DNA of 64,000 nt from Phoronis australis (taxonomy: Eukaryota; Animalia; Phoronida): positions 848,335 through 912,334 of the forward strand of contig NMRA01000039.1 of the NCBI GenBank assembly GCA_002633005.1, written 5' to 3'. The stretch's first letter is position 1, and each line of letters starts with the position of its first letter. The notes below the pieces were generated by a model that ran no database searches, had not been told where the DNA came from, and saw nothing but the letters and a program-made list of their open reading frames with translations. Position numbers and translations under genes: made by a program. Shown here one piece after another: positions 20,553-44,387 of the stretch.

Positions 20553-20633
20553 CTAGCTCAGCTTTTGAGATTCATTTCGTATGGCACTGATAAGGTCCTG
20601 GTTGATCAAAAATATGAACCGTAGTCCACTAAT
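20553..20633 (-). CDS. MCRS1: MCRS1 last coding exon (ISGLRFIFLINQDLISAIRNESQKLS*)
   Basis: Conserved LRFxFLINQDLI; ttccag acceptor; TAG stop. Candidate AATAAA signals on the minus strand at about 20043 and 19141. Confidence 0.95.
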   Translation of the reverse strand: MSGLRFIFLINQDLISAIRNESQKLS

Positions 20634-23600
20634 CTGGAAGAGAAAATGGAAAATGAAGTCGTAAGCGTGCAGCTGGACATCGTCTTTGAAGGACAACTCG
20701 TAATGCATGTGTAAATGGACCGACGGGGCCCATTTCACTGAAGGACTTTAACTTTTTTGGTTGTGAGTCTGCATTAGACCTATGGCAATTAACCACGCTA
20801 TGACTTGTTTCCAAGATTAAAAAAATAAACTGAAAGAACTTCGGTCCAAAAAGTTCCCAACAACAAATTGACAAATTGAAGTTTTATCTTAAAATTGGCT
20901 TAAATTTAAGATTTCTCTGTGCTAAGTCAGTTCACTTAGAATGGGCCCCTGGTCTAAGTTGAGAGATGATTTTTAGGCTATCGCTTGGACAGTCGAGACT
21001 AGTTCTATAACAGTAACTGACTAAAATCAAGAGTTTTGTTCTTTTGATGCAAGGTAGTTTACAGCAGCTTTAGGTTATTTTCAAACTAACATTTTCTCCT
21101 GAGTAGTGTGCAAAACAACAAGTATTGCTGACCTCAGATATACAATTTGTATTTCCACTCATTTGTCTAATGGGAAACAAAGTTTAATGCACAACATTCA
21201 GTGCAGAAAGCTGGTTTTCAAAATGCGGGATACCTGTAATTATTACCAGTCAGACTAACCTTAGATATTTCTTGTTTTCTGTGATTTTTTTCTAGAATCT
21301 ACATTTTTTCTAGAATATATGTTTTTTTTCTGGCAACTCAATGTTCAGCGAACTTTTGGGGTCCTTCGCAGAATCTCCATAAGCTTTACGTTCTTTATAT
21401 TGTATTAGGTTCATGTGTATTGTGAATGAAGAGTATTACTACCACTGCAGCTGCTGCTACTACTGCTGCTGTTGTTACTATAGGCTGAGGTGGTACAAAT
21501 TATTGTCTAGAGCATTCAAACTGAAAATTCAGAGGTGGGCGGTAAGACGAACAAGGGTGTTTGAAAATCAAATTTTTGAGAAATCAATGGTGGGTGCTTT
21601 ACTAAAACTTACACTACAACTTAATGTCAAGAGAATTGCAGTTATGTCGGTAAGGTCACGTTCAATAGTCACATGAAACTTCCGCGGAATAAACACAAGT
21701 TAACTAATGGTGCGAGTTCAGGACCAGAAATTCTCTGTGGGTACTTTCAAGTGTTTAAAATAATCAATTTCATGCCAAAAACAACCCCAGCAGTCAATCA
21801 ATTATCAAATTAGAACGCCCACAAACACTATCTAATTAGCTTATCTCGAGTTAGCAGCATTCAGTGGTCGAAACATACTACGTAAAATGGAGACAACCAA
21901 TCACATCACTAATCATCCTGCTTTGTGTTTAGTGTGAAAAGTCGTCAGATATTGCTGTTTGTTTTCCCGTGGTTTATGGTATCATAAGGAAGAGCCAGGC
22001 ATTGTGTTTGTGGTGGTTGTGACAACTTAGTATTTGAGCACGCTGTGGTTTTTTCACTTTCCTGTGAGACAACAGAGAAGCGCGGACATGGCACAAGTTT
22101 GTTGGTAAATACGACACACTGGTGCTGGGTAGTTTACACCTCATACTCATCATCGTGGAGCTAAGAAACTTTCAACTGAACTCGTTTTTCTCTATTTCCT
22201 TAACCCTGTTTTTTGGGATATTGAATTTACGGATGTGATATGCATTGTTATAAAGAAAGGTATAATAATGATGACAAGGTAGTCACTCGTCAAAACAAGG
22301 TAAACGTGGTCTTAAGCACATTAAAGAGTAGGGCGGATAACTGAGCATGTGTACTTAAAAGTGAAACTTTTGAAAATCAGGCTTGACATTACCCCCAAAC
22401 AGTCCTGTCCACACACAGCCTACCCTAGAACAACTTGCACCATTGCAACTTACCCCACTTTTACGTGGACTGTCCACACACATATCTGATGACTAGGGTA
22501 AGGCGGAAGTTGTAACTCTGTGCGTGACAATGAACACCTAATGCGAATATGGCGGGCAAATGAAAACCTGTCTGTACGTAACCGCAGCTGATAATTGCAG
22601 CTACACAGGAATTAGAAATGGCACAAGTTACCTTAAAACAAGTTACCCCACCTCGATAATGTGGAGTAAGTTGTCACAAGTGGAGTAAGTTGCGCTAGTT
22701 TAAATAGCGTTCAGACAGCCCTCAAATCTAGCGACAACTTGTTTCTGGAGTAACTTGTTCTAACATAAGTCTGTGTGTGGACAGCACTGTAAGCACCAAA
22801 CTAACCCTGACAAGTACTGTTACCACATATAACTGGTTGGCATGTAAACGCCACTTTAAGGGACAATTTCTGCCTCTCACCTCCACTACAGAGTTGTTAT
22901 TGAGTTTCTGTTTCGTGCCAATCAGCACAGGTTTGCCATCGATGTAAATCGGCCGTTTACCCTCGTTGGCCACATAAAAGTCTCCATTGTTGCGCAGTTT
23001 AATGACGCCCTGCCGCCGGGAGATCTTCCATGCAGGTCCCTCCAGTGACAGGTCCACATCAATCTGGTTGTCCTTGGTAGCACGTCCGATGGTAATCTAA
23101 AATGGACATTCACTCGCATGTTTTATTTACAAAAACTTCATATCATGGCTATAAAAAGTGTCGTTTTGATAATTATTTTCCAAAAAGACGTTTCCTCCTT
23201 ATCCATAACCTAAACCACAAAATCTGTAAGCTCTCACCAGTGCACAATATGGAGGACAAGTGAAATTCCATTTCCTCCATTTTTTTTAGTAAAATATGTA
23301 GGACCAAAAATATCAAATGTTAAATGCTGCACCACACCTATCTTCAGATCTTCAGACAACGTTTTCAGACATTGTGGGCAGCTTTTCCAAATTTAAAAAA
23401 GAGTTTTGTCAATCATACTTGTCCGAGAGGTGAGACTTTACCATAATTGTCCAGTCCACTCAATAAGAAAAAAATTGTCTTCAATCTTTCTATACCGATA
23501 TTGGAAATACCTTGTCTCAATTCAGAGCACAAACTAGAAAGATGTGTGTAATATTACAAACAAGGTTGGTCAACGCTTCCAAGTTTGGACTGCTCCATGT

Positions 23601-26600
23601 CAATAGGAAAATGACCTCAAGTACCATTACATGCCACATCCAACCAGTAAGTGTGAACCCTTCTTACTAGCTGGGGTTACAATATCCACTCTTGGACTTT
23701 CGACAGGCGTTTTTGCTTGGGTATCAGGGAAGCAGAGACAGGGGTCAGTGATAACTAATGCCTGTTCTTGGCAACATTCTTTTCCGCCCATTCTAGAAAC
23801 TACGGACAATGAAAACTGAATCAGTCATTAAAAATTGAACTTTTCATAGTAGTAGTAGTAATACACTTTATTCACGCTACGACAAAAAAGACAATTAATA
23901 CAAATTTACGCTTATGGAAACTCCGTGAAGGACCCGAAGGGTTCGCTGACCACGGAGCCACCAGAGAATAAAAAAATACAGTGTTACAGATAATCAGAAT
24001 TACAAAAATTAAGTGATAATGTAATTTAAAACTACTTGTGAAAAGACCAGGAGAGATTATCAAAAATAGTTACAAAGCAGTTGGGAATAGTGCACTCAAG
24101 TTCATAATTTTCAAAACAAACATTTAAACGCAAACAATCAGTTAACAACAGATGAAAAAAGAACTATGGCATATCGAAACTACTGTTCCTTTGTTTAACC
24201 AACACAATGAAACAACTTGTCTCTTGCAATTTTGATGTCTGTCAGTAATCATCATTTTTATATTTATTGTTATTATAATTGTTAATCTTTCCCCATATAA
24301 TGTTATCCATTTGCGGACTGTTACTGTATCACTTTTCGTTCAATTTCATAAGACGAAATAAATAGTTATCTACGGACACAACTTGATTTGTGAACACTGC
24401 CCCTTGACACAGTGATCTTGATACCCCTAACGAATACAGTCCGAAATTTGAAGTGGGGAGCGTGTCATGCGTTATGATGGAACATCACCAAGATAAGGAT
24501 TTGCATGTTTGTGCGCTAATGAGGACGAAATACCCTTTAAAACAGCTATAAACCCAGCATCCATACGAAATTGAGAAACTTACTGCTGGATAAAAACAAC
24601 AAGAGCAACGCGGAGCGGTGAAAATGCGCCCATGAATGCACCGCAAAAGGTTAGCTTAAAGGGTTGTTTATTCGTATCATAAAAATGGCCACAAGATAGC
24701 ACAAAATACGTCGAATCCATCCAAAAACGGGAACATGTCATCATTTTTTTAATAGAGAGTTATTTACTACATTTCATAGAAATCTGTCAAGGAACTTCAT
24801 AGAAACAAAGGAAAACTGAAAAAAATGAAACTGCCACTAGGGGCACTGCGTTCATTGGAGCAATCTGAAAGTCGTCTTCATCAGTTGTTAACTTCATGTA
24901 AATACACTTACTAAATATAATAAAGATGATGCAGTGGGCTTTGGAGATACAAAACAAAACTACCACTAGGTGGCGCCACAGCAGTCGAAGTCATCATTGT
25001 CAACTCTTCTCTTCACACGGAGAATATACACCGATTTTCAATATCATCCTTAGAATGGTTTGGTTGATAGAGTGAAGGACGTCAAAAAACAGACTCAAAA
25101 ACAGCAAAAATACATTGAAGCCATTCGAAAATGGGAGCATAGCGTCATCTCACCAATAGATGCCTATTCCAAATTTTATGACAATCCGTTGAGGACCTTT
25201 GAAGATACAGAGGTAAATGTAAAAAACTAAAATTGCCACTAGGGGGCACACCAGTAGTCAGATACGTCTGAAAGTCATCGTCGTTTGTTGTCAACTTCAT
25301 ATAAATACACTTGCTAAAGTAAGTAAAGATTCTGCAGAGGGTTTATGAGATACAGCCATGGGCGCAAAAAACAAAATTGCCACTAGGAGGCACCACAAAA
25401 TACCTTGAATCCATCCAAAAACAAAAGGATAGCGTCATCTCGATAAAAGATACCTATATGCCAAATTTTATGAAAATCCGTTGAGGACCTTTAAAGATAC
25501 AGAGGTAAACGTAAAAAATTAAAATTGCCACGAGGGGGAACACCGGTAGTCGGATCCTTCCGAACGTGCAAAATTTCATGAACATACGCCAAAGGATTCT
25601 GGTGATAAAGCAACGAATGCCGGATGGTCAAATAAATATGTGGGTGCATAAAAATCGAATTACAAGCCTTTATGTATCATGAAATCAGTCTCGTAAATAT
25701 TCCTCAGCTTGGTAGGATTTATTTCCGTTATGTTGTATTTTGCAGTGTTGATGCAGTAACTAACTCAACTCTATTTCTAGTATTAATTGCTCTTTGGAAA
25801 TAATAGAGAGGTTACGCAAAGCGACGTGAATGTGAATTAACACGCATACATAATTCTGCGTCATACATGCCGTTGTTGGCTGTGACATACTCCCAATAGT
25901 GTTTGCGTATTTTACCTGAATACAGGGAACTTTGCGTCTCTTTAAACGCGAAACCTGTGTCCTCTTTTTAATTATTTGGCAAGATATCGAAACAATTTTT
26001 TACTTTTGACAGGATTCTCAGTCTTTCTTTTTTGCTTCAGTATAAAATAAACACGATTCTTTTGTCTATAAATGTTCTTAAAGTCTAGCTGCCGGGGTTC
26101 GCTGGATATAATCGAGCTAAAATGGATTTTTAACTGATTTTGGGTTGTCAAAATTTTATATGCTTAATTTACTTGCATCTATTTATTTTAAACTGCAAAT
26201 AAATTTCGCATTCTAAGAGTTGATCATTTTTAGCAGGAGTTTGTCGAAACGACTTTTTTCACATTCAACATATATTTCTATCTTGTATATCTGTAGTGGG
26301 TATCAGGAATTCCAGTTATGTAGTACATATCATGTACTACGATAACTGGACATTCTGAACTCAGTCATTCAGTTCACGTTTACTTTCACGTCCATGTAAA
26401 AATATAGCTGTCGTGAAACCTATTTTTGTTACTGCAACGTGAATCGGCACGTGCAATTCAGTATGTGTGATAATTCACGTTCACGTCGCTTTGCGAAACC
26501 TCTCTAATGGCCCAAAGCCAAAACTGAAAAATCTGACGATGTAAATCATTTCATTGAGGCCAAGCAAAACACTGAAAAACACAGCTGTGACAACAGAGTG

Positions 26601-29600
26601 CGCATGTGTAACAATAATGTGGAATAAAATAGGGCAGAAAATCTTAAATTTGCGACAAAAACCATTGCTAAACTTGCCATATTTGTTTTGCAGATGCTTA
26701 CCACATTGTTGCAAATACTCAAAATTTTTACGAAATGTTGTTTGGTCATAGCTACGCCACACAAACTGTGCTAAAAGCAAAGTAAATTTTCATGAAAAGA
26801 TATTTTTGTTGAGATATTTGGCAAAACAAAATTTCACCTGTCTGTCAAATCGATGTCAAAAACTTAAGAATTTTTACCGAAGCTCAGAAAATGTTACCAT
26901 TTAAAAAATGCTCATCACCGACTTTTCCACCTCAAAACATGGCATCACGGGTTGAAATCTAGCAGAAAAGCAACTTTACATATTCATTTCAGGACTCTCA
27001 TTTTTTACACAAGTTTAAAAACTCCTGAGCATATCAGGAATTTTGTGTTGGAATATTTTTATTTATGTCATTTCTGAAAAATCTTCACAAACATGGGACA
27101 GCATCAAAGTTCATATAAAAGTAGGTTGTCTTACCGGTATTTACATTAGGATGTTATCTAAGTGTCTAAGTGGAATAACAGGATTACATTGTAAGCATTA
27201 CATGAATTTAGACCCTTTCCCACAAAGTTAAATTCACTACAGTCGAAGCTTCGATGTAAACTGTTAACCCGAAGTTAAGGTAGAATGTTCACATCAACAC
27301 CGGAGTCATAGTTCAGCGAAGTTGTCGCAAGGTGGCGCTAATATGACCTTGGCCTGTATATGTTCATACACCTTACTGTTTTTACCCTAGCCATCAAAAA
27401 TTGAAAGAACCTTCCCTCTCCCCACACAGACATGAGGACGTCTATTTCAGAAGGCAAGCAACAGATGTGAAGTTGAGATGAAGAAGATGTAGAAGAAGAT
27501 GACGGCATTTAACAGAAAATTGGGTCTCTTGTGGCTTGCAGCAGATCCATGCAAAGGCGGTATGTCGTTTGGCGGGAACTCGTTTTGCGTACAGAAAACG
27601 TTCAGTGATATTCTATTATTCTTTTAAGGAAAGAATCCCGCAAACACTGGAGAAATTGCCAAAATAAAAAACATTGGAAAAAAATATTGACAAAAATTGA
27701 CTAGTTACTGCCTACTGTTGGTGAACACAGTGACACCTGCTGATTTCAAAAATTATTTTTTTATTATTGTTTCAATAAGAGTAGCTGGGCTCTAAATGTC
27801 AAATTGTTGTTACTTATGTATGGTTTGAAATTGTTTGGGCACAACAAGGTGTAGGTGACACTGCCTCATGTATATGCAAATTTCTATAATCTTGATATCC
27901 AGAACTGGAGAAACAGGATATCTCCCCAATCATTAGATGTTAAAAATTGATTTTGCTATTGAAAAATACACAACATGTCTAGAAAACAATTCACTTAAAG
28001 TAGCCGTTGCAAGATATAGATACTTGGCTCACTCTCTAATGATAGTTAAGGGAAGGTTTAGAGAAGGCAGTGTGGCCTAGTGTGATAGGTGCCCACTTTC
28101 TTTACTCGAGGTTGTGGGTTCGAGTGCCACTGGGCCAGACTGCTCGACCCTTGAGTCAGGCTTCTAGCTCCTCAGCTCGGTTTTAACTACCGGCATATAT
28201 AACAAGAGCAATGCAGAGCGTTGAAATGCGCCCACGAATGCATCGCAAATGGTTTGCTTTTAGGGTTATTTATTTGTATCATAAAAATGGCCACTAGATG
28301 GCGCAAAAATGTACAAACCATCCAAAAACGGGAACGTGCCATATTTCATAAAAATCTGTCAAGGAACCTCAGAGAAATGAAGGAAAACGGAACAAAATAA
28401 AATTGTCACTTGTGGGCACAGTGTCCGTTCGATGCGCCTAAAAGTCGTCGTCTGTTATCTTCATATAAATTCACATACTAAATTTAATAAAGATCCTGCA
28501 GTGGGTTTTGGATATACAGCTATGGGCGAAAAACAAAACAAAACTACCAGTAGGAGGTGCCACAGAAGCCAGTCACCATCATCAAACGTACTCTTCACAC
28601 TGACAACATATACGCCAATTTTCAAAACCATCCCTAAAATGATTTGATTGATCAAGGGGTGGATGCCAAAAACAAGATTTGAAAACAGCAAAAATGGCCA
28701 CCAGGTGGCGCAAAGTAACTCGATTCCGTCCAAAAACAGGATGATAGTGTCATCTCACCAATAGATGCCTATATTCAAAATTTTATGAAAATCTATTGAG
28801 GACCTTTGTAGATACAGGCTGGTAAATGTAAAAAAACTAAAATTGCAGTTAGGGGGCACACCTGTAGTCGGATCTGTCCTAAAGTTCGCTCATGCCGTTC
28901 CATCCACGGAAGGAACACATGTGCAAAATTTCATGAACATACGTCAAGCCGTTTTGGAGATAGAGCAGCGGACGCCGGATGGACAGAGATGACGGCATAA
29001 TGCGTCCACATATAAATATGTGGCTGCATAACAAAACATTTAAAATGGTTCCAGGTGATAAGTGCAATGGGCCCACTTCAGCGGACTCTGCACGTCTGAT
29101 ACAACGTGTACCAGACCGCCTGCAATTATATTTTTTAAGGTAAGGTTTATTGGTCTTGATGGAGGGGAGGAAAGTAAACACATCTCTGCTGCAATAAAGG
29201 AAAGGTGGAATCAGAAATATACTTTCTCCTCGGATGTAAATTATATTCTGATTTGCACATATAGTTCTTACTTATATTTGATAGGGTGGATGAAGCAGTA
29301 TTCAGGGATCTCCTACAGACCCACTATATAAATAACTTGAGAAAAATTGCTGAATATTTAATTAATGGTGAGAAACGTCGAAATGAGTTTCTTAATAAAG
29401 AAAGATTTGACATTGTTTGCTTTCTACACACTAATATGTAGAATGTAAAAAGTAACCGAAATTGGTGTTTGAATCATACAAATCGGTTCTCTATAACTGG
29501 GTTTTCGTACACAGGTCAAAACGACTTCAGCTGCTTGACTGATGAGGAAGGCAGTCCTGCTCAAGAGGAGACTGCATACTGGTGCCCTCTAGAATAATGG

Positions 29601-32600
29601 GAGCACAAAAATGATTTTCGATTGATCCCAAATCAGATTTGGTGGACAGAAATTCAATTACTACATAGTGCAGGGCCCTCGTTCATCTGATTGCATTAAA
29701 TGACACTCTATGATAAGAACAGATAAAATTTGGATAATAAATAATCAATTTTGTATGAAAAGAACCAAAATGAGAATCAATAACAACCAAACAAAATAGC
29801 ACTTTTACACTCACGGTGATATCAATAAGTTTTCAAGGACAACACGGCTTAGTTTATCCTCCATTTGTTGGAGCAATCACCCCCCAAAAAACAAAACAAA
29901 CTGGGTTATCTATCAAAGGAGGCAGGGGGTACTCCAGTAAAAGGTGTACATGGCAAATGCCACTCAGACAAGTGAAATTTTCCCACTTTTTTCTCTACCA
30001 AATACAATACTTTTTTTCTGGCAAAATTCCCTATGAAAGAATATCTCTTGATATAAAATTCTCTGCAAAAGTGTTTACTATGGGGATTAGAAATTCAACA
30101 AATGGATACATTCCAACAAAAATTTATAGAAGGTTTTTTAACTCTATCTATAATTTTCAAACTTAGTTTGCATTTTTGACAACAGTACTTTCTTTGATAT
30201 TGTTTCCAGCTTAATGAGTTAAAAGATATCTGTCCATCCAGAATTCCAACAAAAGGTTAGGTTTTACAAAGGGAAGTGTTTCTATAATAAAATTAAACTT
30301 AAGAGATTTTTAATGGAAATCTCAACAAAGGAGTTCCTTTTTTCCAGTCCACTCTTAATGTTTATTGGTAGGTATTCTAATTTATAAGTAACACCCCCAC
30401 CAGAAATAGTTAAAGGGATGCTAAACCCTGTTTTGATGATTTCAACCAACCCATGTTATGTCACCTGCTAATGCATCATTGCCATCAATCCAGTAAAAAC
30501 TCACATCCCGTATTTCACAAACTGGATATTATGGTATTTTCCCACTTTGAACCGGTTACACTGAAAATTTGAACTTTTCTATTTTGGTCCAAAGTCACGA
30601 TTTTATAGGCAGATTTTGATAAATAATTGGCTGTGACATTTGCTAAAACCGTATACACTTGCTCATTTAGCAGAATTATCAAACTTAGAGGCTTATCAAA
30701 AGTTCCAGAGCCGTGGTTTTAGTATCTGGGTTTGATATCTTTTTAAGTGAACACAAAGTTCAGTGACGTGCTATGTATTATCTGAGATAACCGACTTTAA
30801 TGAAATTCATATATCAGGACAGTTCTAGAATTTTGACAGGCATTTCTTCAGCTTATATTTTCTCATATTTCAAGTTGTGTACTTAGCTCCTTAAATATAG
30901 GTGTCAGTTGGAGAGCGCTGAATTACCTTCAGCGTCGGTAACTAGCCATGGGCCAAATTTTCTGAATGTCGGGTCTCTGAACACTATATATATACAAAGG
31001 TTAAAACACAAGTTGTATATGTTTCAATTCATCAACTATATCTGACAGTATCCCACCTAATTCAATTTGAATTATGGCAGTCAAACTTCAGTTCCTTAAT
31101 TCATTGTAAAAATCTCCCGTCTTTGCACTACAAATTATTAAATGTAAGCTTGCCCATTGCCAAACAAAAGCAGGCCAATTCTTTTGAGTGTAAAAGTACA
31201 GAAACCCGCTTGCTCTAATAGCCCAATTCACTTGAGAGGGTTACATACACTTGGCAAATACATATCGCAAGCAGTACTTATCCTTGTGGCGACCACTCAC
31301 AAAGGAGATAACTTACAGGAATATCATAGGCACTGACTGAGGAGATTGGAGATTATTTTTTGCGCTGTTGTAATTGTTTGTAGGCAGGTTTTTAAGGTGA
31401 CTATAACTAGACAAACATGAGAGGAATCAAACCAAATACACACTTACACTTTAGATTTTCAGGAACTTTTCAAGGCTTTGTGCAAAAATACAAGAAACAA
31501 ACTAAGGGTAGTCAAAGTCTGTGCGAACCATGTTAAGGCAAGACTCAGGGGTTTTCATACATAGCTCAAGACTTTTCAACATGGTGCAGCGCAAAGTCTC
31601 GACCCAGTTTACATCATCAAAAACTAACCTCCCGTGACCTCATCAAGTAGCGGACCAGGCGGCCGCGCAGTACACCTAACGTCTGGTTGTCAAAGTCAGG
31701 GGCACTGATGCCTGTCACACTATCCACGAGGACCTGCCACTTGGGTAGTTCCTGCTCCAGGTGGCGAATCTCTCTCTTCTGACGACGATCGGCGATGGTA
31801 AGCTCTACAAGAAACAAGACGTCAATATTAAATTATGGCAACTGCTCTACAACTACGCACATTCTAAATTATAGCACATCCAAATTTAGTAAACAAAAAA
31901 TATGATACTTTTCTGTGAATTCGCACATGGTACAATGGCAGGCATTCTTAATTTCTATTCATTCCCATATACTTAAACGCCAAAATACCACTCACCCCTA
32001 CCTCTTGAAATAATTACTTAATATTGCATGAATACGTAGAGCAGTTGCCATAAACTGTATTCCTGTCACACTCCCAACCTTGTGAGACTCAACATATGTT
32101 ATCCGATATCTAAATTCGTTTGAGATGTAAATGCAACATATTTGTTGCAACAAATCTGAGAGCGGCACAGTGATGATAAGTGGATCTTGCAACCTATCAA
32201 TCTCAGAGAAGTGAAAGAGGAGCAAGGAAAAATGATCCTCAGTTTCAGGGGGGCCCAAGAACAGAGCTTGAGTCAAGAAGAGCACAACATGAGGCGAGGC
32301 TGAACACCCTTTCAGCATGACTGTCACATACATTGTCTTCACCTGCCATGTCTTTTTCCATTTTACAGGGAAAGCTGTTTTAAATTAGCAAGTTATTTAA
32401 CCCACATAAGTAGAATAACAGTTTTTTGCATCATGAATGCATGAGGTTGCGAGTTTTTTAATTCATCTCACGAAACTTCTCAGGAGCAACCACTGTATTT
32501 CATTTGCCACATTTCCCATGAGGACAGAGAAAAATTTCACAAAGAAATGCGACTTCAGTATTCAAGTGCTGGCTCGTACGAAACTCATACTCAACCCAAA

Positions 32601-35600
32601 TTCAAAATCATTTCAGTACACCTTCACATGCATTAATCCCAACCCCTTTCCGCCACTGGGAAAAAATTCAAAAGAGGGAATCAAATATCAAACTTGACAT
32701 AATATATTATTAATTCCTTTTTTGTGGGCATAAAAATAAAATGTTATATATCTACTTACAATTACGAACTTTCAAATATTTTTAAGGTTAAAAGTAACTC
32801 GAGGATTTTTCAAGGTCAGAATTAAATTCAAAGACAACTCAAGGTCAAGGTTCTAAATTTAAAGACTTTTCAAGACTGTACACACCACGACACTTACCGT
32901 GTTCGAGAATTTCGTCCTTGCTGTCTTTCAATTCGTCGTCGTTGATCATGTCCTCGGCATCGGAGAAATTTAACACGTGATCTCCTCTCGGTATTGGTTG
33001 AACTGTAGAGAAACGACGAGACATACAACATGGTACAGGGTGCACTGTAGAGAAACAAGAGATACAACATGGTACCAAGGTAATTCTGTAATAAGCTTGC
33101 ATTCCATTGATTAAACTAACTTTTGATTCATACCTGCTTACCACTATAAAGCTAGTCTCGAACTCAGAGAAGAATTGATTTATGGGCTTGGATAAAACTA
33201 AGACTTCTGATGATGCTCACTATTTAAGATGACACGCAGACGACACGCCAGGGATTGCAATGACCAATGACAAAAAAGAGGAACATTTTCCAGGTGATGT
33301 ATCATTCCACAAATAGACTTGTATGATAGAAATATTTTTCGGGTAGTGAAATTTAAGGAAATGAATGTTCTTGCACCAATAGAGCCAAAGTGACAAAAAA
33401 GAGACAAAAAAAAGAGAACACTGTAAATCAAATCAGAAGAAATACAAAAAAAGAGGAAATCCTCCTAAAAGAGGAAATCGATGCGCCATGACAAGCCAAC
33501 TATTTGGGCATGATCTCAAGCAATAACAAGACGTCAACTTCTTCCTAAGTCCACAAACTACTTCTAATTTATGTAACGGACAAGTTGAGATAAATTTGTG
33601 TAACGGACAAGTTGAGATAAATTTGTGTAACGGACAAGTTGAGATAAATTTGTGTAACGGACAAGTTGAGATAAATTTGTGTAACGGACAAGTTGAGATA
33701 AATTTGTGTAATGGACAAGTTGAGATAAATTTGTGTAACGGACAAGTTGAGATAAATTTCATAACTACAAATGGTCTAAAAACATTAGTTCTTTTTGACT
33801 GAAGACCAGACGATAGCAGCCTTAAAGTGGAGCTTTTCCTTCAAATAATACTAAACGAACGTGTCTAGGAGAGATCACTTAGCACTCTAATGTTGCGCTA
33901 CCTTCACAACAAAACTAATAGGAATCTTAATTTTCACTGTTCCTACAGAAAAAATCAATTTTAGAAAATCCCGAATTCCTTGTTTTCGTTTAGAATCTGC
34001 CACACCCTGCTCCACTAGTTCTGGTGTCATTTTATTGCGTTGAAAACTGGAAATAGCAATGCCACCTTGAGAAAAGAAAACGGACTTATGTCAACAACAG
34101 TTGAACTTGGTGCCGGAAATAAAGACCCATTACACAGATAACACCCCGGTCTCTAAAATGCAACCGTCAAGCCAACCTGATTGGTCAGGTAGGAGATGGT
34201 ATTGTTTCATCAGCAGCCAATGAGAGTGCAAAGACGAGGCAGTGCGGGCGGGGTGAAACACCGTGGGGTTCTTGTCCAGCGTCTCTTGAAACACGTCCAC
34301 CGTGGGCTGACTAGTCTGAAAGACAAACAAGTGTCGTCACGTCATCCAACAGTTAATGCACCAGCCACAGGAGCATTACATAATACATGACAAGCATTAC
34401 ATAATACATGAAACTTGCGGCAAGATATCTTGGCTTACGGAACGGCAAAAGTAAATTTTCTCTTGAAAGTTATTTCAGCCCCTAAAACTGATCACTTTGG
34501 AGGTAGCCAACTTGGAAGTCATGGTACGTCACTCACAAACTGCTACCCTTTCACTCATGTGCTGTTACTTGACCTTGAGAGTGCTTGACCTTAAGTGTGC
34601 ATGACCTTAAGTGTGCGTGACCTTAAGTGTGCATGACCTTAAGCGTGCTTGACCTTCAATGTGCATGACCCGAGGTTTATCTCCCAAATATTGGATAGGG
34701 GTGTGGGTCTGTGCTGTCAAAATCCCAAATAAAAAAGTAACTAAGTATTTGGTAAACGGGTGCACGAGACAATGACAAGTGATGAAAACCCCTACCCAAG
34801 ACAACAGTTCCTCCAACCAATCATCACCCACCCGGGACAATACCTCAAAGCTGCCAAGTAAGAATACTTCAAATCTGCCATTTACTTATACAAGACGATA
34901 CCAGAAATGGAAACACCCATCCGAGATTACAGCTGAGGACAAAATGCCCACCCAAAATAATGCTCCCAAGTTTTATTGCACATCCCTATTAACCCTTCAG
35001 GTGGGAAAAACCACGGGCCCTCATCGAAGGCAGTGTTCACACTGTGATATTATCCTGGTTGACATAAACTGTGTTCGCATACTCTACCGAAGCAATTTTT
35101 CCCAGCAACGTCTCTTCCTCCTTGCTGTAGAGAGCCTTGGCTTGTACAGACTTCACAATATCCGGGTGAAGTTGGCGAATGGCTTGAACTCCTAGTCTGA
35201 AACAAAGTGTGTGAAGTTGGGTGAGCTCTGTAAGGTATGACCATCAGAGGCAGAATGAGTGTGATGGCAACACAATGTCAACTGTTTGGTGCAAGCTTTC
35301 ATTGTGTTAATTGTCATGAACATTCCGGTGTATATCAAAGATCAACAAAATGTGACTATTGTTAAAATTCATTGTACGGGTACTGGCTATTGGCTAATCT
35401 CTCAAATAGCATTGATAGGATAATGCTTGGTATCATTTTGTTATTTGCACAGTTCTGCTGACAAAAGATATTTAAATGTTCAAAAATTTCTAATCAGAAA
35501 CCCTTGTAGTTGTTTCTGTCTCCAAAAATACAGTTAATGCTTACAACTTGACAGCGACCACTTGACATTAATTGACAGTGATGAATGGTATGACAAGTTA

Positions 35601-38600
35601 ACAACTGACACGTTTCCCAGGGTTGCTCTTTTATATAAGGATATTTTGCCATGACGAACATTTGTGCATGAACCAGTTGAATATCGCACTTTACAACAGC
35701 GATAATTTGATGGTATGGCAATTGAGAAAAAGTAAACGCTGCGAAATCTCTCCATATTAAATACGTCCATCCATGATACAAAATAAATGTTGACTGTAAA
35801 TGACAGTGTTGTCCACCAAATACTATACCAGCACCTAACTACAGATGCTATTTCATTATGTCGCTGCAGCATGTTTTTAAGAAAATTGCAAGTTTCAAGG
35901 ACACAATTCGAAATGAAGACATTCCAAATCAAAAACAGCAACATGAGCAACTAAGTGTGAATGCAGCTTAACTCACCATCAGAGGGACACTGTAAACATC
36001 TACGCCAAATACTTACTTTGATATGACCGAGTCATAAAGCAGCGAGTACCACCGCTCCTGAATCTCTTTCAATGTAAACTTGCAGGAGAACTTCACGCCA
36101 AGATGGACGGCGGTCAAATCACTGGTCTGTAACACATAATTACAGTCTGCACAAAGCATCCACTTGTGGAAACAACCTCTCAACTAAGCATTCTAAATTT
36201 GCAAGCTAGGCATTGTTACAACGTTATACCACTGGTTTGCAACACAGTTCCGCAATTTGAATACAACAAACATCAATAAGAAATAACCTCTGAAGAAGGG
36301 TTAGCAATTATTCTAATTAAACACCCTCAATATTATAAACTGTAAAAATTCTGCAAGACTAAAAGTTTAGAAGTTATAAAACTGTAAAGCAGATGACCAT
36401 TCTGCTTTTAAAAAACAGACCAGACCTCGTGAGAAAAACTGCTACAGCACTATTTTAAGATGGCTTGTTCACAAAGTTATGGTACGTAATCTTTAACTTC
36501 GGGTTGTTATGAATGATCTGAATTTTGATGGTCAAAGAGTGCCCACGTTAGCAGCATAGAGGGCAGTGTACTACATAGGTTTTGACTTTGGAATCGTAGT
36601 TGTGAGGTCCCAGTTTTAATCTTGTGTTCTGTAGCAGATGTCAACCTCATTTTGGTCAAGTTCATATCAGGTCGATGATAAATGATCACCACGCTGTCAT
36701 TCACATTTTGATCATATTTAACGTTACTTAGTGATATGAAATCATATAAATTTTCACCACTGATGATAAATTTTGCACGAAAATTCTATCAACCATTGAT
36801 GTGAATTCTCATCAACCATTAAAATCTTGTCACACCATTCACATGTCATTGAATTCATAACAAGAGCAACGCGGAGCATTGAAATGCGCCCACAAATGCA
36901 TTGCAAATGGTGTGCTTTTAGGGTTATTTATTTGTATTATAAAATGGCCACTAGATGGCGCAAAAACATACAATCCATCCAAAAACAGGAACATGCCATA
37001 TTTCATAAAAATCTATCAAGGAAATTCAGAGAAACAAAGGAAAACAGAATAAAATGAAATTGCCACTAGTGGGCACAGTGTCCGTTGGATCCGCCTGAAA
37101 GTCGTCGTCTTTGTTTTCTTCATATAAATACACTTATTAAATTTAGTAAAGATCCTACAGTGGGTTTAGGAGATACAACTATGGGCGCAAAACAAAACTA
37201 CCACTAGGAGGCGCCACACTAGTCAGTCACCATCATCAAAGATCGTCCTCACACTGAGAACATACATGCCAATTTTCGAATGATTTGGTTGATACAAGGG
37301 TGGACGCCAAAAACAAGATTTGAAAATGGCGAAAATGGCCACTAGGTGGTGCAAAATACCTCGATTCCATCCAAAAACAGGAAGATAGCGTCATCACACC
37401 AATAGATGCCTATATTTAAAATTTTATGAAAATCTGTTGAGGACCTTTGAAGATACTGAGTTAAACGTAAAAAACTAAAATTGCCACTAGGGGTCACAGC
37501 ACTTGTCAGATCTGTCCGAAAGTCGTCGTCATCCATAGTCAATATCATATAAATACACTTGCTAAATTAAGTAAAGATCCTGCGAACGGTTTAGGAGATA
37601 TAGCCATAGGTGCAACAAAAACAAAACTGCCACTAGGAGGCGCCACAGTAGTCCAAATCGTCGGAAAATCATCGTCAACTGTCCTCTTTACATACATGCC
37701 AATTTTCACAATCATCCTTTGAACGGTTTGGTTGATAGAGGGGTGGACACATCCGAAAACGGGAGAATAGGGTCATCTCACTAATAGGTGCCTACATATT
37801 ACATTTCATGAAAATCCATTNNNNNNNNNNNNNNNNNNNNNNNNNNNNNNNNNNNNNNNNNNNNNNNNNNNNNNNNNNNNNNNNNNNNNNNNNNNNNNNN
37901 NNNNNNNNNNNNNNNNNNNNNNNNNNNNNNNNNNNNNNNNNNNNNNNNNNNNNNNNNNNNNNNNNNNNNNNNNNNNNNNNNNNNNNNNNNNNNNNNNNNN
38001 NNNNNNNNNNNNNNNNNNNNNNNNNNNNNNNNNNNNNNNNNNNNNNNNNNNNNNNNNNNNNNNNNNNNNNNNNNNNNNNNNNNNNNNNNNNNNNNNNNNN
38101 NNNNNNNNNNNNNNNNNNNNNNNNNNNNNNNNNNNNNNNNNNNNNNNNNNNNNNNNNNNNNNNNNNNNNNNNNNNNNNNNNNNNNNNNNNNNNNNNNNNN
38201 NNNNNNNNNNNNNNNNNNNNNNNNNNNNNNNNNNNNNNNNNNNNNNNNNNNNNNNNNNNNNNNNNNNNNNNNNNNNNNNNNNNNNNNNNNNNNNNNNNNN
38301 NNNNNNNNNNNNNNNNNNNNNNNNNNNNNNNNNNNNNNNNNNNNNNNNNNNNNNNNNNNNNNNNNNNNNNNNNNNNNNNNNNNNNNNNNNNNNNNNNNNN
38401 NNNNNNNNNNNNNNNNNNNNNNNNNNNNNNNNNNNNNNNNNNNNNNNNNNNNNNNNNNNNNNNNNNNNNNNNNNNNNNNNNNNNNNNNNNNNNNNNNNNN
38501 NNNNNNNNNNNNNNNNNNNNNNNNNNNNNNNNNNNNNNNNNNNNNNNNNNNNNNNNNNNNNNNNNNNNNNNNNNNNNNNNNNNNNTGTGAAAGCAATATG

Positions 38601-40213
38601 AACAGAGTCAATGTGACTTGAATGGGACTGAACATGGTGTAAATGGGGAGTGAACATGGTGTGAATAGGGAGTGAACAGGGTGTGAATGGGGAGTGAACG
38701 TGGTGTGAATAGGGACTGAACATGGTGTGAATGGGGAGTGAATGAGAATGAACGTGATGTGAATGGGGAGTGAATGAGAATGAATGTGATGTGAATGGGG
38801 AGTGAATGAGAATGAACGTGATGTGAAAGCAATATGAACAGAGTCAATGTGACTTGAATGGGACTGAACATGGTGTAAATGGGGAGTGAACCTGGTGTGA
38901 ATAGGGAGTGAACATGGTGTGAATGGGGAGTGAATGAGAATGAACGTGGTGTGAAAGCAATATGAACAGAGTCAATGTGACTTGAATGGGACTGAACATG
39001 GTGTGTATGGGGAGTGAACATAATGTGAATGGACAAATTTTCTACAGCAGCACATGATGAAATACTCTAATGCTGGCAAGATAACTGTTCAAAGATCTAG
39101 GGCGGCGAGATGCAGTTTAATTTGAATCTGGACAAAAGCCAGTTACCTGTTGAACAGCTGTGATTAACAACAAGTCATCTTGCGGTTTCCACCTGCCCAG
39201 ATCTTTGGTCGTCGCGACAACAGGAAGTTGATGCTACAACGACAGATGGCAACATAATCAGTTTTTGGTTCAGGTCAACACCATAGTTTGGTAGATTTTG
39301 GGATCTTTCTGAGCAGTAATCTAGACTAAAACTTTATTTTATACGTGAAGCACTGGAGTAAAATACATTGAAATCGCATTGGACACCAACAGAAATCTGT
39401 GCAGGAAAATTCTACAAACAACAATCCCACGCAACATAAATAGATGGTGTCAATATTGCCCCCATTTGCTTTTACAACCTCTGGTTTCTTCAGAAATTTT
39501 ATTTTCACCTCACAGCAAAGCATTTTCATGCTAACAACTTTTAGGGAGTTACACAGTTTATTCGTATTTCCAATTATTTACCTTAACCTTTTTGTTTTTC
39601 TTCGAAGAGCTTGTCTTGGAGGGCTAAGGAGGGAAACACAACAGCAAATAAATTAGAGCAAAGTATTAACAGAGAAAATCAAGCCAACGTGTTCTTGAAC
39701 ACAGAAATAAGAATGAAAACGTTCACTATTCCCCATAAAGTTTCATCAGAGGTATTACCATGTTGACATCCATCTAAATCCCACTTTATTAGATCATTCT
39801 ACAGTATTGAAAGAACAATCGCTAACAACTCAAAAACCAGGTTTCAATTTTCCTTGGGTTCCAATTTGAAGCTTTTATTGGCAGAAAAAAACCCAAAAAT
39901 TACAAATAACTGTTGACAAAATATAACTGACCTTTTTCTTTTCAGCCACCACAGGCGGTGCTGGTGTTACCACGGCAACCACATCAGGCGACTCCGCTTG
40001 CTTCTCATTGCCACCGCCTGGAAGTGGACGCCCTCTCTCTGTCTTGATCAAACTACTTTCCACGAGCTCGTCATCAAACTTCCTCCGTTTCACAGACCGT
40101 GTTGAGTGTCGCCTTGTTTCTATACTAGATGAGGCTATTCTCCGCACAGGATGACTAAAGGTCAGTTTGCCCCTTGTACTGGACGCTGCGGTGGTATCGG
40201 GGGAGTCATCCAT
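20553..40213 (-). CDS. MCRS1: Microspherule protein 1 (MCRS1/MSP58; NSL and INO80 complex subunit, FHA domain); whole spliced CDS, 10 coding exons, about 448 aa
   Basis: Exons 40213-39932, 39623-39582, 39233-39147, 36126-36017, 35196-35088, 34315-34177, 33002-32898, 31804-31629, 23096-22881 and 20633-20553 all have GT-AG ends and compatible phases. The peptide contains MCRS1 hallmarks KRRKFDDELVESSL, DLGRWKPQDDLLLI, VLNFSDAED, DRRQKREIR, DFDNQTLGVLRGRLVRYLMRSREIT and DLSLEGPAWKISR. Confidence 0.97.
20725..20949. mobile_element. Small MITE with GGGGCCCATT termini (Harbinger-like)
   Basis: ggggcccattt...aatgggcccc; related end at about 16810-16835. Confidence 0.5.
22400..22789. mobile_element. 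MITE with ~22-bp TIRs and internal caacttg/caagttg subrepeats; related fragment at about 6480-6700
   Basis: cagtcctgtccacacacagcct versus agtctgtgtgtggacagcactg. Confidence 0.6.
22881..23096 (-). CDS. MCRS1: MCRS1 coding exon 9 (FHA domain)
   Basis: ITIGRATKDNQIDVDLSLEGPAWKISRRQGVIKLRNNGDF...NNSVVE; ttttag acceptor, GAG|gtgaga donor. Confidence 0.96.
24598..25650 (-). mobile_element. Non-autonomous Helentron-associated element (HINE/pearl-like), copy 1
   Basis: End aacaagagc with a short hairpin; subterminal inverted repeats (atgcgccc / gggtgcat); internal ~140-bp repeats; homologous to four other copies. Confidence 0.7.
25805..26505. mobile_element. MITE with ~45-bp terminal inverted repeats and 3-bp TSD (AAT); PIF/Harbinger-like
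   Basis: agagaggttacgcaaagcgacgtgaatgtgaatt... versus ...aattcacgttcacgtcgctttgcgaaacctctct; aat on both flanks. Confidence 0.8.
28065..29136 (+). mobile_element. tRNA-derived SINE split by a HINE insertion (parts 28065-28200 and 29031-29136)
   Basis: Both halves are colinear with 63541-63777; A box GTGGCCTAGTG, B box GGTTCGAGT. Confidence 0.72.
28201..29030 (-). mobile_element. HINE-like element copy 2, inserted inside a SINE
   Basis: Complete ends; terminal hairpin atgcgtccacata...tatgtggctgcat; degenerate ACGG microsatellite; splits the SINE at 28065-29136. Confidence 0.75.
31629..31804 (-). CDS. MCRS1: MCRS1 coding exon 8 (coiled coil; ELTIADRRQKREIR...RYLMRSRE)
   Basis: Closely matches the recalled vertebrate MCRS1 peptide; gtag acceptor, GAG|gttagt donor. 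Confidence 0.96.
32898..33002 (-). CDS. MCRS1: MCRS1 coding exon 7 (VQPIPRGDHVLNFSDAEDMINDDELKDSKDEILEH)
   Basis: Conserved VLNFSDAED; ctacag acceptor, G|gtaagt donor. Confidence 0.95.
33566..33759. repeat. 27-bp minisatellite, about 7 near-identical copies
   Basis: (aaatttgtgtaacggacaagttgagat)n with no spacers. Confidence 0.95.
34177..34315 (-). CDS. MCRS1: MCRS1 coding exon 6 (TSQPTVDVFQ...HWLLMKQYHLLPDQS)
   Basis: Conserved HWxLMKQYxLL; tttcag acceptor, G|gttggc donor; phase 1. Confidence 0.95.
34570..34669. repeat. 16-bp tandem repeat (tgaccttaagtgtgca), about 6-7 copies
   Basis: Direct reading of the sequence. Confidence 0.85.
35088..35196 (-). CDS. MCRS1: MCRS1 coding exon 5 (LGVQAIRQLHPDIVKSVQAKALYSKEEETLLGKIAS)
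   Basis: Conserved RQLHP and KALYSKEE; tttcag acceptor, gtagag donor. Confidence 0.93.
36017..36126 (-). CDS. MCRS1: MCRS1 coding exon 4 (TSDLTAVHLGVKFSCKFTLKEIQERWYSLLYDSVISK)
   Basis: Highly conserved peptide; ttacag acceptor, gtaagt donor; phase 2. Confidence 0.95.
36859..37820 (-). mobile_element. HINE-like element copy 3 (runs into an assembly gap)
   Basis: Same aacaagagcaacgcggagc end and internal repeats. Confidence 0.72.
38586..39032. repeat. Compound GTGAATGGGGA-type satellite next to an assembly gap
   Basis: Repeated gtgaatggggagtgaa units plus a longer unit (gtgaaagcaatatgaacagagtcaatgtgacttg) present three times. Confidence 0.9.
39147..39233 (-). CDS. MCRS1: MCRS1 coding exon 3 (HQLPVVATTKDLGRWKPQDDLLLITAVQQ)
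   Basis: Conserved DLGRWKP motif; gttgtag acceptor, CAG|gtaact donor. Confidence 0.95.
39582..39623 (-). CDS. MCRS1: MCRS1 coding exon 2 (PSKTSSSKKNKKVK)
   Basis: ccttag acceptor, AAG|gtaaat donor, 42 nt in frame; supplies the basic stretch before TKDLGRWK. Confidence 0.75.
39932..40213 (-). CDS. MCRS1: MCRS1 coding exon 1 (MDDSPD...KRRKFDDELVESSL...EKKK)
   Basis: ATG at 40213; acceptor ctacag puts the exon start at 40233; donor AAG|gtcagt; 94 codons, phase 0. Confidence 0.92.
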
Positions 40214-41450: not shown

Positions 41451-44387
41451 AATTTATTGGTATATAGCATAATTTGCGAATGTAATGAACTGTATTCCGC
41501 ACTAAAGGGTTCATTAATGAACTATTTCAAACACTTGTTCTAAATGAAAACTTCGTCAATTTCTGACAATCAGGCGAATTTCTGACTCACTTCGTAGTTC
41601 CGAGTACTGCCGCTAGGGGTGGTCCTGTGAATCGTATTGAATGTTTGGTTTACAACACTGAAGCACTTCAAATTTTCCTGATGAAAACTCAATGTAAAAG
41701 AAAACTAAACAGTTATTTCTCGTAGTGAGAACAATGATTCTTATATTTAAGTTTTTTTTTTCTATTTTGCTTCACATTTTTGTTGGTCAAACCACTGATA
41801 GACTTGGGTTGGCTTGTTGCCAGAGAGGTCCACACCCATTTTGCCTTATTGGTCATGACATTTTAGTCAGAATATGTCAAGATAGAAAATGAAAATATTT
41901 TAAGTTTAGATTAAACAAATATTACAAATGTACAGTTCTACTGCAGTCCTGTGTTTCCAAGACTTTGTGGTCCACTACTATGAAACACATGCTTTCGATA
42001 AACTTTTTTTCTGACCACGGGCCAGTATATATAATTTTTAACAGAACAATTGAGGTTTGCCTAGATTGTTCATAAATCTCACCCTGATCTATATCCTCCA
42101 GGTAAGCTTTGTTGGAAGTTGCTGTGGACCAAACCANNNNNNNNNNNNNNNNNNNNNNNNNNNNNNNNNNNNNNNNNNNNNNNNNNNNNNNNNNNNNNNN
42201 NNNNNNNNNNNNNNNNNTGGATGGCTCATGACAGGGTCTTCATTTTATTACATTGTTGTGGAAAGTTTATGTAAAAGTTTTATTTATTATATGTCTTTCA
42301 GAAGCTTGTATTAAAATGTTCTATTTATCATACCTGTCATCAATACATTTTTGAAATGATGCTTGTTTATCTTTAATTTTTACTTAATGTAATTGATTTT
42401 GACAAAGTTAAGCCGGTTACAAACTGCATGATTGTTAAAAACAATATCACAAATAATATCAATAATTTGCTCAATCAATTATCAAGTTTCAACTTTCCTG
42501 ATAAAAAATCTTTAAAATGATACCTTATTTGTTTTTTTCCTGGAGTAATTGTTATTTTATGAAAATTCGAAATCGCACAATTGTACATAGTGACTTCTCT
42601 TTGTTGACTGTGCTGACTTTAAGGTCAATATCTTCGCACAGGAACGTCTAATCAAAATGGGTTTTTGGCAAATTATTCATCATAAAAAGTTCTTTAAAAT
42701 GATGTATTACATGTCTATCTACGTTTCTTATTTTTGAAATCATAATATTTTGAACTCGCAGATTCGATTTGACAGAATTTTTACCAAAAATTTTGACACG
42801 AAAATGACATTTTCTCCGGAACCATCAATGCGATTTAAAAATTTTTTGTATCGTTATTTTAGTCTCGAAAAGAGCTTTCTAATGATGTATATTACATGCA
42901 CATTTTCTAAAATTTTTGAAAAACGTTGTCCTCCCTACCCTGAGCCTGAGACCGAGAGACCTAAAATTGGTGGTCGGACACCTGGATCGTCTTGTAGTCC
43001 ATTTAGCTCACAATTTCTAGACAAACTTTACGGTTTGGTAATTACTATCTTTTATATCATACATTAATACTACATTCAACATCTCCATGTAAAAGGTTTA
43101 CGCCAATATTGGACAAAATCACACAAGGAAAAACTCACACAACATCTTGCATATCCTAAACCTGTCGAAAGGTGGCACTCATGTAAATATACTTTTAAGA
43201 ATTTTTTTTTCAAATCTAAATTAGCAAAAAATTATTGAAATTTAAATTATCAAAAATAATAAATCTATGTAAAAAAGACAAAAAAATAAGCTTTGTAGCT
43301 TTTAAAATATTTTTGCAAAGATTGACCCCCGCTGTCATTTCCTGTCCATCTTGTGTGTCACCTGTCATCCTGTCTTGGAGACGAGACGCACTCCGTACCA
43401 GGAGGCCTCGGTTGATGCATCATTGTGTATGTTTTAGCTTACTATGCGTGTAGCTTTGTCTACACGAATACTGCTACGACTGTGAAAGCTAAGTTAACTG
43501 CTGTGGTCGACATATGAACAAAGTTTAAACCATATTCACAAATAAAATCAAAGCCGGGCGGTGGCGGTGGTAAAAGTTTCATGACGTCGTTCTCCAGACC
43601 AGTTCGGTGAATTTACCAGACGTTATCGAGGGTTGTGAGCATTATCATATATCATAGCACAGAGTCAGAGAGCCTTTCGAATGACGACCTGCCATTTTGT
43701 TCATTCTGTTCGTCGACACTAAGTCTAAGTGGCATGTGTGGCACTCTCACAAGGATGGTTGCTGAGGGCCTGATGTGCTGACCTGGGTGTTCACTCACTC
43801 CGCACTCACTCACTAGACACTTAAACTCCCCACTTAAACTCCCTTAAAGTTTCAGTGTAATGACATTGACACTCACTAGGTGTCAGTGTCACCCATCCTG
43901 TTGTCACACTTAGTGTCACTGTACAGGGATCGACATTTAGCATAATGTCAAGTTGCCCAAGTGTCGAGTGTGCGGAAAAAATCTCTAGTTTAGGACAATG
44001 ATAAATTATCTTGGTCAAGGTCGGAGCTCATCCTAAAATTAAGAAATAGACAATATAGGTCATCAAAAAGTGCAAGAATCACGAGAAAGACGAATTTTGC
44101 ATTGGCAGCTATTCATTATCTCGGGCTTAGTTGATACTATATTACAATGTCTGATATTTGCGAAATTTGATGAACAGACATTCATCACAAAGGGCCATTA
44201 TTATACTTATTATCAGTATACAGTCATCAAAAAGGCCATTATTATGAGCTCAAGAAGCTAATTCAGCTATGACTTTAGAGAGTAACACATCGACTGAGAT
44301 TCCCGTTGTGATTGCTAATATGGTGATCAAAAATCACTTGAAAATTAAAAGCAGATAATCAGGTATCAAAGTTACTTGGCTGTCAAT

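What the first reader, a model, noticed from the sequence alone, without database searches (positions are those of the whole stretch)
24598..37820. Transposon carrying periodic arrays of CTCF-consensus motifs
Seen in sequence: each HINE-like copy has internal units of about 115-147 bp whose most conspicuous recurring core is a CCACYAGRKGGCRC-like motif. Examples: ccactaggtggcgc (24963), ccactagggggcac (25236), ccactagatggcgc (28291, 36948), ccaccaggtggcgc (28698), ccactaggaggcgc (37201, 37630). Copy 3 has six motifs at about 36948, 37063, 37201, 37339, 37483 and 37630. Established knowledge: this matches the CTCF core motif, and transposons are known to spread CTCF sites in mammals. Inference: a rolling-circle-derived element dispersing multi-site insulator arrays; this window alone has more than 20 motif-like sites.
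Basis: partly seen in the sequence, partly recalled or inferred. Interest (0 to 1): 0.7.

Follow-up and report, generated by a model that had tools for sequence, protein, structure and literature searches.

The report
Jumping element stacked with CTCF sites
A very common non-coding jumping element in this invertebrate genome carries a string of roughly 145-base repeats, each with a match to the docking site of the genome-folding protein CTCF; the motif was kept while the repeats diverged but mutates as fast as its surroundings in landed copies, so it likely serves the element itself rather than acting as a host insulator.

Summary
Five copies of one repeat family lie in the window, with 27 motif sites, one per ~145-bp unit. 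Of 26 ungapped sites, 8 match the published CTCF consensus CCASYAGRKGGCRS exactly and 9 with one mismatch; 17 matches versus 0.06 expected. The element has HINE (non-autonomous Helentron) anatomy, and read depth suggests roughly 20,000 copies (rough). The units form an A-B-C trimer. Between unit types the motif is kept (12 of 14 columns identical versus 29 of 131), and its variation falls at CTCF's loose positions. Between three sibling copies it decays like its surroundings (15/210 versus 101/1719 changes), so host selection on landed copies is not seen. Best reading: active element lineages were selected to keep a protein-binding block, likely for CTCF, perhaps as a shield against silencing. 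Against this, the kept block extends into an A-tract outside the CTCF core, and neither binding nor the host's CTCF could be tested. Host insulator arrays are not supported. New variant of a known kind.

The parts
24598..25651 (-). HINE copy 1, complete, older sub-lineage; 7 units, 6 motifs (24689, 24834 with a 1-bp deletion, 24963, 25236, 25380, 25528). Strand is the standard HINE (T-rich) orientation; the motifs read CCAC.. on +
   Evidence: lies in the MCRS1 intron between exons 31805-31620 and 23096-22878
28201..29031 (-). HINE copy 2, complete; 5 units (motifs 28291, 28406, 28547, 28698, 28846); inserted at AA/TT inside another repeat
   Evidence: paralogous empty sites at 63630-63715 and 46070-46165
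36859..37820 (-). HINE copy 3, cut by the assembly gap; order A-B-C-A-B-C (motifs 36948, 37063, 37201, 37339, 37484, 37630)
   Evidence: in the MCRS1 intron between exons 39215-39147 and 36135-36016
44386..45115 (+). HINE copy 4, lacking the 5' end; 5 units (motifs on the minus strand starting 45053, 44939, 44799, 44648, 44501)
48641..49300 (+). HINE copy 5, most diverged, lacking the 3' end; motifs on the minus strand starting 49290, 49211, 49078, 48925, 48780; GTCY-type microsatellite remnant at about 48680-48705
48645..48669 (+). 5' subterminal repeat (ATGCGCCC) with nested inverted-repeat hairpin of copy 5; the copy-2 hairpin (about 29006-29023) has a compensated base pair in the stem
   Evidence: DNA fold z=-3.47 for copy 5, -2.67 for copy 2, +0.24 for copy 1; sequences
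45094..45108 (+). 3' palindrome (6-bp stem) of copy 4, followed by CTCTTG; damaged in copies 1-3
   Evidence: z=-2.98 in copy 4; z=+0.95, +0.08, -0.25 in copies 1-3
36878..36891 (-). 3' subterminal repeat of copy 3 (also 24624-24631 in copy 1 and 28226-28233 in copy 2); complementary to the 5' one, 12 of 14 letters between copy 3's 3' end and copy 1's 5' end
36940..36961 (+). Example of the conserved block of each unit: A-tract plus 14-bp CTCF-like core (36948-36961, exact match to CCASYAGRKGGCRS)
20556..40213 (-). Host gene MCRS1 (microspherule protein 1); copies 1-3 are in its introns

Best explanation
This is a high-copy non-coding transposon family with HINE (non-autonomous Helentron) ends whose ~145-bp central repeats each carry a CTCF-consensus core, and the core was likely kept by selection on the actively copying elements, probably because bound CTCF helps them, rather than by selection on the host's landed copies. 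Shown: the HINE-type ends, the A-B-C trimer, the motif match, its retention between unit types and its neutral-rate decay between three sibling copies. Inferred: mobilisation by an autonomous Helentron; binding by host CTCF; and the benefit, most likely keeping the element open and unmethylated. Sites every ~145 bp would leave no room for whole nucleosomes if they were all occupied. My odds by step: HINE about 0.9, lineage-level constraint on the block about 0.8, CTCF as the constraining protein about 0.55.
For: Motif: 8 of 26 ungapped sites are exact and 9 have one mismatch to CCASYAGRKGGCRS (consensus from a PMC6746451 legend; count). The commonest B-unit word equals the first 14 letters of the Spec-seq reference site (PMC5694663), and family reads restore it in copy 3 (37494 T>G in 91% of X1 depth). 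Retention between types: type consensuses are identical in 12 of 14 motif columns versus 35 of 131 or 29 of 131 with monomers cut in another phase. Between-type identity is 0.77 versus 0.42; the best non-overlapping 14-column window is 0.60. Pattern: majority base in 190 of 208 cells at the 8 fixed positions versus 116 of 156 at the 6 loose ones, driven by positions 8, 9 and 13. Decay after insertion: 15/210 versus 101/1719, odds ratio 1.23, 95% interval 0.65-2.18, with hits at fixed positions 1, 2, 3, 7 and 11. Not a general HINE trait: the six 7-letter motif words occur only 11-54 times each in 3.37 million characters of oyster HINE-array supplement, about 113 expected for one. Parallel: an unrelated 38-bp minisatellite with one core per unit varies most at positions 8 and 13 within the motif (31 units). 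CTCF and its motif are reported in annelids and molluscs (PMC7854359, PMC10658182). The shielding idea is stated for mammalian SINEs (PMC3368268).
Against: The kept block is about 22 bp and includes an A-tract upstream of the core (A in 23, 25, 26, 26 of 26 sites). The two best 14-column windows start 6-7 bases upstream of the motif (0.79 versus 0.77), and a second and third block are also kept (about 0.6), so not all constraint is CTCF-shaped. The C-unit word has A at position 9 and the first B unit has T at 8 (and T at 6 in 2 of 3 sibling copies), outside the published consensus. That the three varying positions all fall among the six loose ones has chance 0.055; the columns and units are not independent, so the smaller p-values overstate the case. 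The older copies 1 and 5 show only a non-significant trend (17/111 versus 209/960, p=0.14). No weight matrix was obtained, the host's CTCF was not examined, no binding data exist here, and no autonomous partner was seen. The neutrality test rests on three copies and cannot exclude a rate up to about 35% lower in motifs.
Confidence: 0.5

Rival explanations
1. The kept block is a site for another protein (the Helentron Rep/helicase, or another host zinc-finger factor such as YY1, whose AANATGG-type core I recall and which overlaps the A-unit word), and the likeness to CTCF is incidental.
For: Conservation extends over the upstream A-tract and two further blocks; C and first-B words depart from the CTCF consensus; no upstream CTCF module is visible in the 20 bases before any core (module recalled).
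Against: The 14 core letters are exact or one off in 17 of 26 sites; variation sits at positions 8, 9 and 13; oyster HINEs, moved by the same kind of machinery, show no excess of the motif words.
Confidence: 0.25
2. No selection: one ancestral unit held a chance CTCF-like word, and exchange between units within this block keeps it homogeneous.
For: Reads from other copies leave the reference in unit register 7-13 bases before motifs (joints 37190-37193 to 37617-37619, and 37748 back to 37332), so rearrangements are resolved near this block; landed copies decay neutrally.
Against: Homogenisation should make the block uniform, yet each unit type keeps its own letters at positions 8, 9 and 13 while the fixed positions stay constant between types. 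Joint positions may only reflect where alignments can switch.
Confidence: 0.13
3. The host has co-opted the copies as multi-site insulator arrays.
For: Many near-exact cores in one orientation per copy; mammalian SINE-borne sites are bound (PMC3368268); copies 1-3 and 4-5 point in opposite directions around the MCRS1 5' region.
Against: No excess conservation in landed copies; one motif is deleted and several are hit at fixed positions; three copies sit inside introns of one gene; in an annelid the CTCF motifs are mostly single, at promoters and without directional order (PMC7854359). A small co-opted minority is not excluded.
Confidence: 0.12

Closest known systems
HINE / DINE-1-like non-autonomous Helentrons (PMC4067079, passages read) and oyster Cg_HINE elements with central tandem repeats (PMC7492417, part 2 of 7 read)
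   Same: Subterminal inverted repeats, nested 5' inverted repeat, GTCY-type microsatellite, 3' palindrome, T-rich insertion site, no coding, about five central repeats of 140-180 bp.
   Different: The central array is a trimer of three diverged unit types, each with a CTCF-consensus core. Oyster arrays show no excess of the motif words (cells over 400 letters are cut), and the passages read mention no such motif.
Mammalian SINEs (B2, dog and opossum families) that spread CTCF sites (PMC3368268, passages read)
   Same: A high-copy non-autonomous element carries the CTCF core; dog and opossum elements carry the core only; shielding from silencing is proposed there.
   Different: Retrotransposons with, as I recall, one site each and ChIP-proven binding; here a rolling-circle type DNA element with 5-7 same-direction sites, in an invertebrate, binding untested.
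Caenorhabditis Helitrons with clustered heat-shock elements (PMC6927752, abstract and passages)
   Same: Rolling-circle elements carrying dense clusters of sites for one host factor.
   Different: HSF-1 occupancy and gene effects were shown there; other factor, and Helitron rather than HINE.
Helitron-minisatellite-derived PATC barriers of C. elegans (bioRxiv 10.64898/2026.08.08.743475, abstract and outline only)
   Same: Helitron tandem repeats linked to insulation and resistance to silencing.
   Different: There the barrier is described as mechanical and not a protein-binding motif; periodicity was not tested here.

Membership tests
HINE (non-autonomous Helentron) | Subterminal inverted repeats of about 11-15 bp, 2-4 nt from the 5' end and a few tens of nt from the 3' end | tested here: met
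   ATGCGCCC exact at the 5' end of copy 5 and the 3' ends of copies 1-3; 12 of 14 letters between copy 3's 3' repeat and copy 1's 5' repeat; 5' repeats of copies 1 and 2 are mutated. The 3' repeat lies about 25-33 nt from the end, a little closer than the 38-60 given for mite HINEs.
HINE (non-autonomous Helentron) | Short inverted repeat nested with the 5' subterminal repeat | tested here: met
   Hairpin in 2 of 3 copies that have this end (z=-2.67, -3.47; copy 1 z=+0.24), with a compensated pair between copies 2 and 5
HINE (non-autonomous Helentron) | Short palindrome near the 3' end | tested here: met
   Intact 6-bp stem in 1 of 4 copies (copy 4, z=-2.98); copies 1-3 carry 1-2 substitutions and do not fold better than shuffles
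HINE (non-autonomous Helentron) | Insertion into TT/T-rich sites without target-site modification | tested here: met
   Copy 2 against two paralogous empty sites: insertion at AA (TT), no longer duplication seen, but the sites are only about 83-87% alike. Loose ends before 36859 are heterogeneous and A-rich, agreement 0.38-0.40.
HINE (non-autonomous Helentron) | Microsatellite after the 5' end and optional central tandem repeats; no coding capacity | tested here: met
   GTCC/GTCA-type remnant in copy 5, shorter in copy 2; 5-7 units; longest ATG frames 52-116 aa (not searched against protein libraries)
HINE (non-autonomous Helentron) | An autonomous Helentron with the same subterminal repeats in the genome | not testable with these tools
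   No whole genome is held for this window; no further element end in the window
CTCF binding site | Match to the core consensus CCASYAGRKGGCRS | tested here: met
   8 exact, 9 one off, 5 two off, 3 three off, 1 four off of 26 ungapped sites; a 27th has a 1-bp deletion
CTCF binding site | High score under a position weight or energy matrix | not tested
   The energy matrix of PMC5694663 is a figure without text; no matrix was obtained
CTCF binding site | Second (M2/upstream) module, present in a quarter to a third of mammalian sites | tested here: not met
   The 20 bases before the cores are A-rich runs; compared by eye with the recalled TGCAG-type module. Optional feature (PMC3368268).
CTCF binding site | Host encodes CTCF with conserved DNA-contacting fingers, and occupies the site | not testable with these tools
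   No host genome or chromatin data; CTCF is reported in annelids and molluscs
Host-co-opted insulator | Motif under purifying selection after insertion | tested here: not met
   15/210 versus 101/1719 private changes, odds ratio 1.23 (0.65-2.18), three copies
Host-co-opted insulator | Insulation or loop anchoring at the element | not testable with these tools
   No Hi-C or reporter data; none among the 8 runs listed

The most novel reading that the evidence does not exclude
A Helentron lineage has evolved, and kept through unit diversification, an array of real CTCF sites as a self-protection device. At about 3 near-exact cores per copy and roughly 20,000 copies it would supply tens of thousands of CTCF sites, probably most of those in this genome. 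Unrelated repeat families in other animals would have converged on the same trick, making transposons a main driver of CTCF landscapes in invertebrates.
Probability: 0.3. Interest if true: 0.72.

Novelty: new variant of a known kind. Interest (0 to 1): 0.47.

Why it matters
What CTCF does in spiralian animals is nearly unstudied (PMC10658182), and the idea that transposons keep CTCF sites to shield themselves has been proposed for mammals (PMC3368268). A family with thousands of copies, several sites per copy and three diverged unit types allows both to be tested: selection in the element versus in the host can be separated by sequence alone, and polymorphic insertions give with/without comparisons for occupancy, methylation and folding. 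It is also a caution: CTCF motif counts in such genomes may be dominated by one transposon.

Tried and rejected
No whole genome is held, so all sequence tests rest on five copies, and family-wide per-position variation around a motif remains open: the read table lists only 40 of 256 rows, mostly letters private to copy 3 (1 of its 35 element rows is in a motif; not informative). Rfam and ARAGORN found nothing. Tandem Repeats Finder did not detect the arrays, as the units are too diverged. A motif-plus-box scan of viral contigs gave 0 hits. A looser scan of metagenome contigs gave 79 loci, none with blastn similarity to this element and none better than E=0.001 to the unit profile; they were picked by the motif, so they show recurrence, not enrichment. 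No weight matrix could be read from supplements; PMC3770538 is not held. Two ungapped tables used a mis-set anchor for one copy-5 site; one search is the corrected count. Rejected: a MITE with terminal inverted repeats (the ends are asymmetric), a SINE (no tRNA-like head), a protein-coding reading, and an assembly artefact (contigs and reads of 4 runs cover the element). No indexed RNA holder was listed. Ten literature searches (listings and abstract starts only) showed no report of a HINE or Helentron with CTCF-motif arrays. Subscription journals and repeat databases were not searched.
Full report
Observation. Self-comparison shows five copies of one family: 24598-25651, 28201-29031, 36859-37820 (cut by a gap), 44386-45115 and 48641-49300. 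A unit profile finds 29 hits, all inside them; they cover 6.8% of the called bases.

Context. Copies 1-3 lie in introns of MCRS1 on the minus strand. The best named protein hits are a brachiopod and a chiton at 92% over 73 residues, with hemichordates at 88%, so the host is likely a lophotrochozoan; this is a weak assignment. No genome is held. Laying two DNA and two RNA runs on copy 3 gave 21,500-26,700 records each. Depth at the element's first bin is about 19,000-22,000 times that of the flanking single-copy contig; the tool warns that this is no copy number, so I take it as an order of magnitude. Joints in trimer register show that copies differ in unit number and order.

What it is. Read on its T-rich strand, the element has the parts listed for HINE/DINE-1 elements (PMC4067079, passages; PMC7492417, part 2 of 7). 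These are a subterminal repeat at both ends, a nested 5' hairpin (z=-2.67 and -3.47 in two of three copies, with a compensated pair), a microsatellite remnant, a 3' palindrome (intact in one of four copies), and central repeats. Copy 2 sits at an AA/TT in another repeat, and two empty paralogous sites show no longer duplication. The autonomous partner could not be sought.

The units. There are three types, A, B and C, repeated as a trimer of about 430 bp, each starting with an A-tract and the motif. Against the published consensus CCASYAGRKGGCRS (PMC6746451, one legend), 8 of 26 ungapped sites are exact, 9 one off, 5 two off, 3 three off and 1 four off; a 27th has a deletion and one unit has lost its motif. 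The commonest B word equals the start of the reference site used to measure mouse CTCF binding (PMC5694663, passages). No upstream module is visible (module recalled), and no matrix score was obtained.

Two time scales. Among the sibling copies 2-4 the motif changes as fast as the rest: 15 of 70 columns variable versus 108 of 580 (p=0.63); private changes 15/210 versus 101/1719, odds ratio 1.23, interval 0.65-2.18; 15 observed versus 15.4 expected for its base composition. Several changes hit fixed positions. Copy 2's last unit is not strictly orthologous and supplies 3 of the 15. The older copies 1 and 5 show a non-significant trend to conservation (17/111 versus 209/960, p=0.14). Between unit types the motif stands out: consensuses agree in 12 of 14 columns versus 35 of 131, or 29 of 131 in another phase. 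Variation sits at positions 8, 9 and 13, all loose in CTCF (chance 0.055 for three positions). Against a pure CTCF reading, the A-tract is as well kept as the core, two other blocks are partly kept, and the C and first-B words step outside the consensus.

Comparison sets. In the oyster HINE-array supplement the six motif words occur 11-54 times each in 3.37 million characters, below chance (long cells are cut), and 0-2 times each in the oyster satellitome file. Six related 8-letter words were absent from ten mite HINE files. So the motif is not general to HINEs. A motif-led metagenome scan returned 79 loci: 47 and 16 form two repeat families with mostly a single core, 6 carry a 38-bp minisatellite with a core in each unit, and 10 are singletons. 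In 31 units from 3 of those 6 loci the most variable motif positions are again 8 and 13, but the motif as a whole is barely better kept than the rest (0.91 versus 0.86). These loci were chosen by the motif and are not homologous to this element.

Mechanism. The pattern fits selection that acts while an element is a copying master and stops once a copy has landed. I infer that host CTCF binds the block and helps the element, most likely by keeping it open and unmethylated, as proposed for mammalian SINEs (PMC3368268, passages). CTCF and its motif are reported in annelids, mostly as single promoter sites without directional order (PMC7854359, passages; PMC10658182, passages). Binding, benefit and host CTCF are untested. 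Rivals are another binding protein (0.25), homogenisation of a chance word (0.13) and host insulator co-option (0.12).

Novelty. HINEs with central repeats, transposon-borne CTCF sites, and Helitrons with clustered factor sites (PMC6927752, abstract and passages) are all known. A HINE with a CTCF core in every unit of a diverged trimer did not appear in ten searches (listings only). Figures and bioRxiv supplements were not visible and could hold relevant repeat consensuses. Verdict: real, a new variant of a known kind, interest 0.47.

Noticed in passing
window 36855-37820, RNA runs X5 and X6: About 97% of family-derived RNA read pairs have the first mate on the A-rich strand. If the libraries are of the usual reverse-stranded kind, transcripts carry the T-rich strand, which is also the MCRS1 sense strand for copies 1-3. 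Library strandedness was not calibrated; if it is forward, capture of A-rich RNA could explain the bias.
   Followed up: partly
L025, L033 (also L017, L029, L043, L051): A 38-bp minisatellite with one CTCF-like core per unit, up to about 20 units. In L025 and L033 a few units also adjoin a microsatellite plus hairpin that looks like a HINE end. Unrelated in sequence to the window's element.
   Followed up: partly
47 loci (e.g. L002, L031) and 16 loci (e.g. L010, L052): Two further interspersed repeat families, most copies with a single CTCF-like core; class not determined.
   Followed up: partly
window 25804-26506: An element with 52-bp inverted ends (88% alike), MITE-like, just behind copy 1.
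   Followed up: no
window 28065-28187 with 29029-29136; 46066-46164; 63541-63776: A second repeat family, into which copy 2 inserted.
   Followed up: partly
window 45696-45827, 46910-47130, 48434-48622: Likely exons of a plus-strand gene with leucine-rich-repeat-like stretches (no Pfam hit for two pieces). Copy 5 begins about 18 bases behind a GTAAGT donor-like site, and the reading frame runs on into the element.
   Followed up: partly
window 33566-33759, 34568-34670, 38586-39030, 51584-51745: Tandem arrays: 27-bp (7 copies, 98% alike), 16-bp, an 11/22/32-bp compound array next to the gap, and a TCTG microsatellite.
   Followed up: no
window 4003-4132, 43976-44092, 59767-59882; 5544-5786, 33249-33477; 30410-30490, 46530-46872, 56325-56681; 13200-13339, 15521-15646: Further dispersed repeat families.
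   Followed up: no
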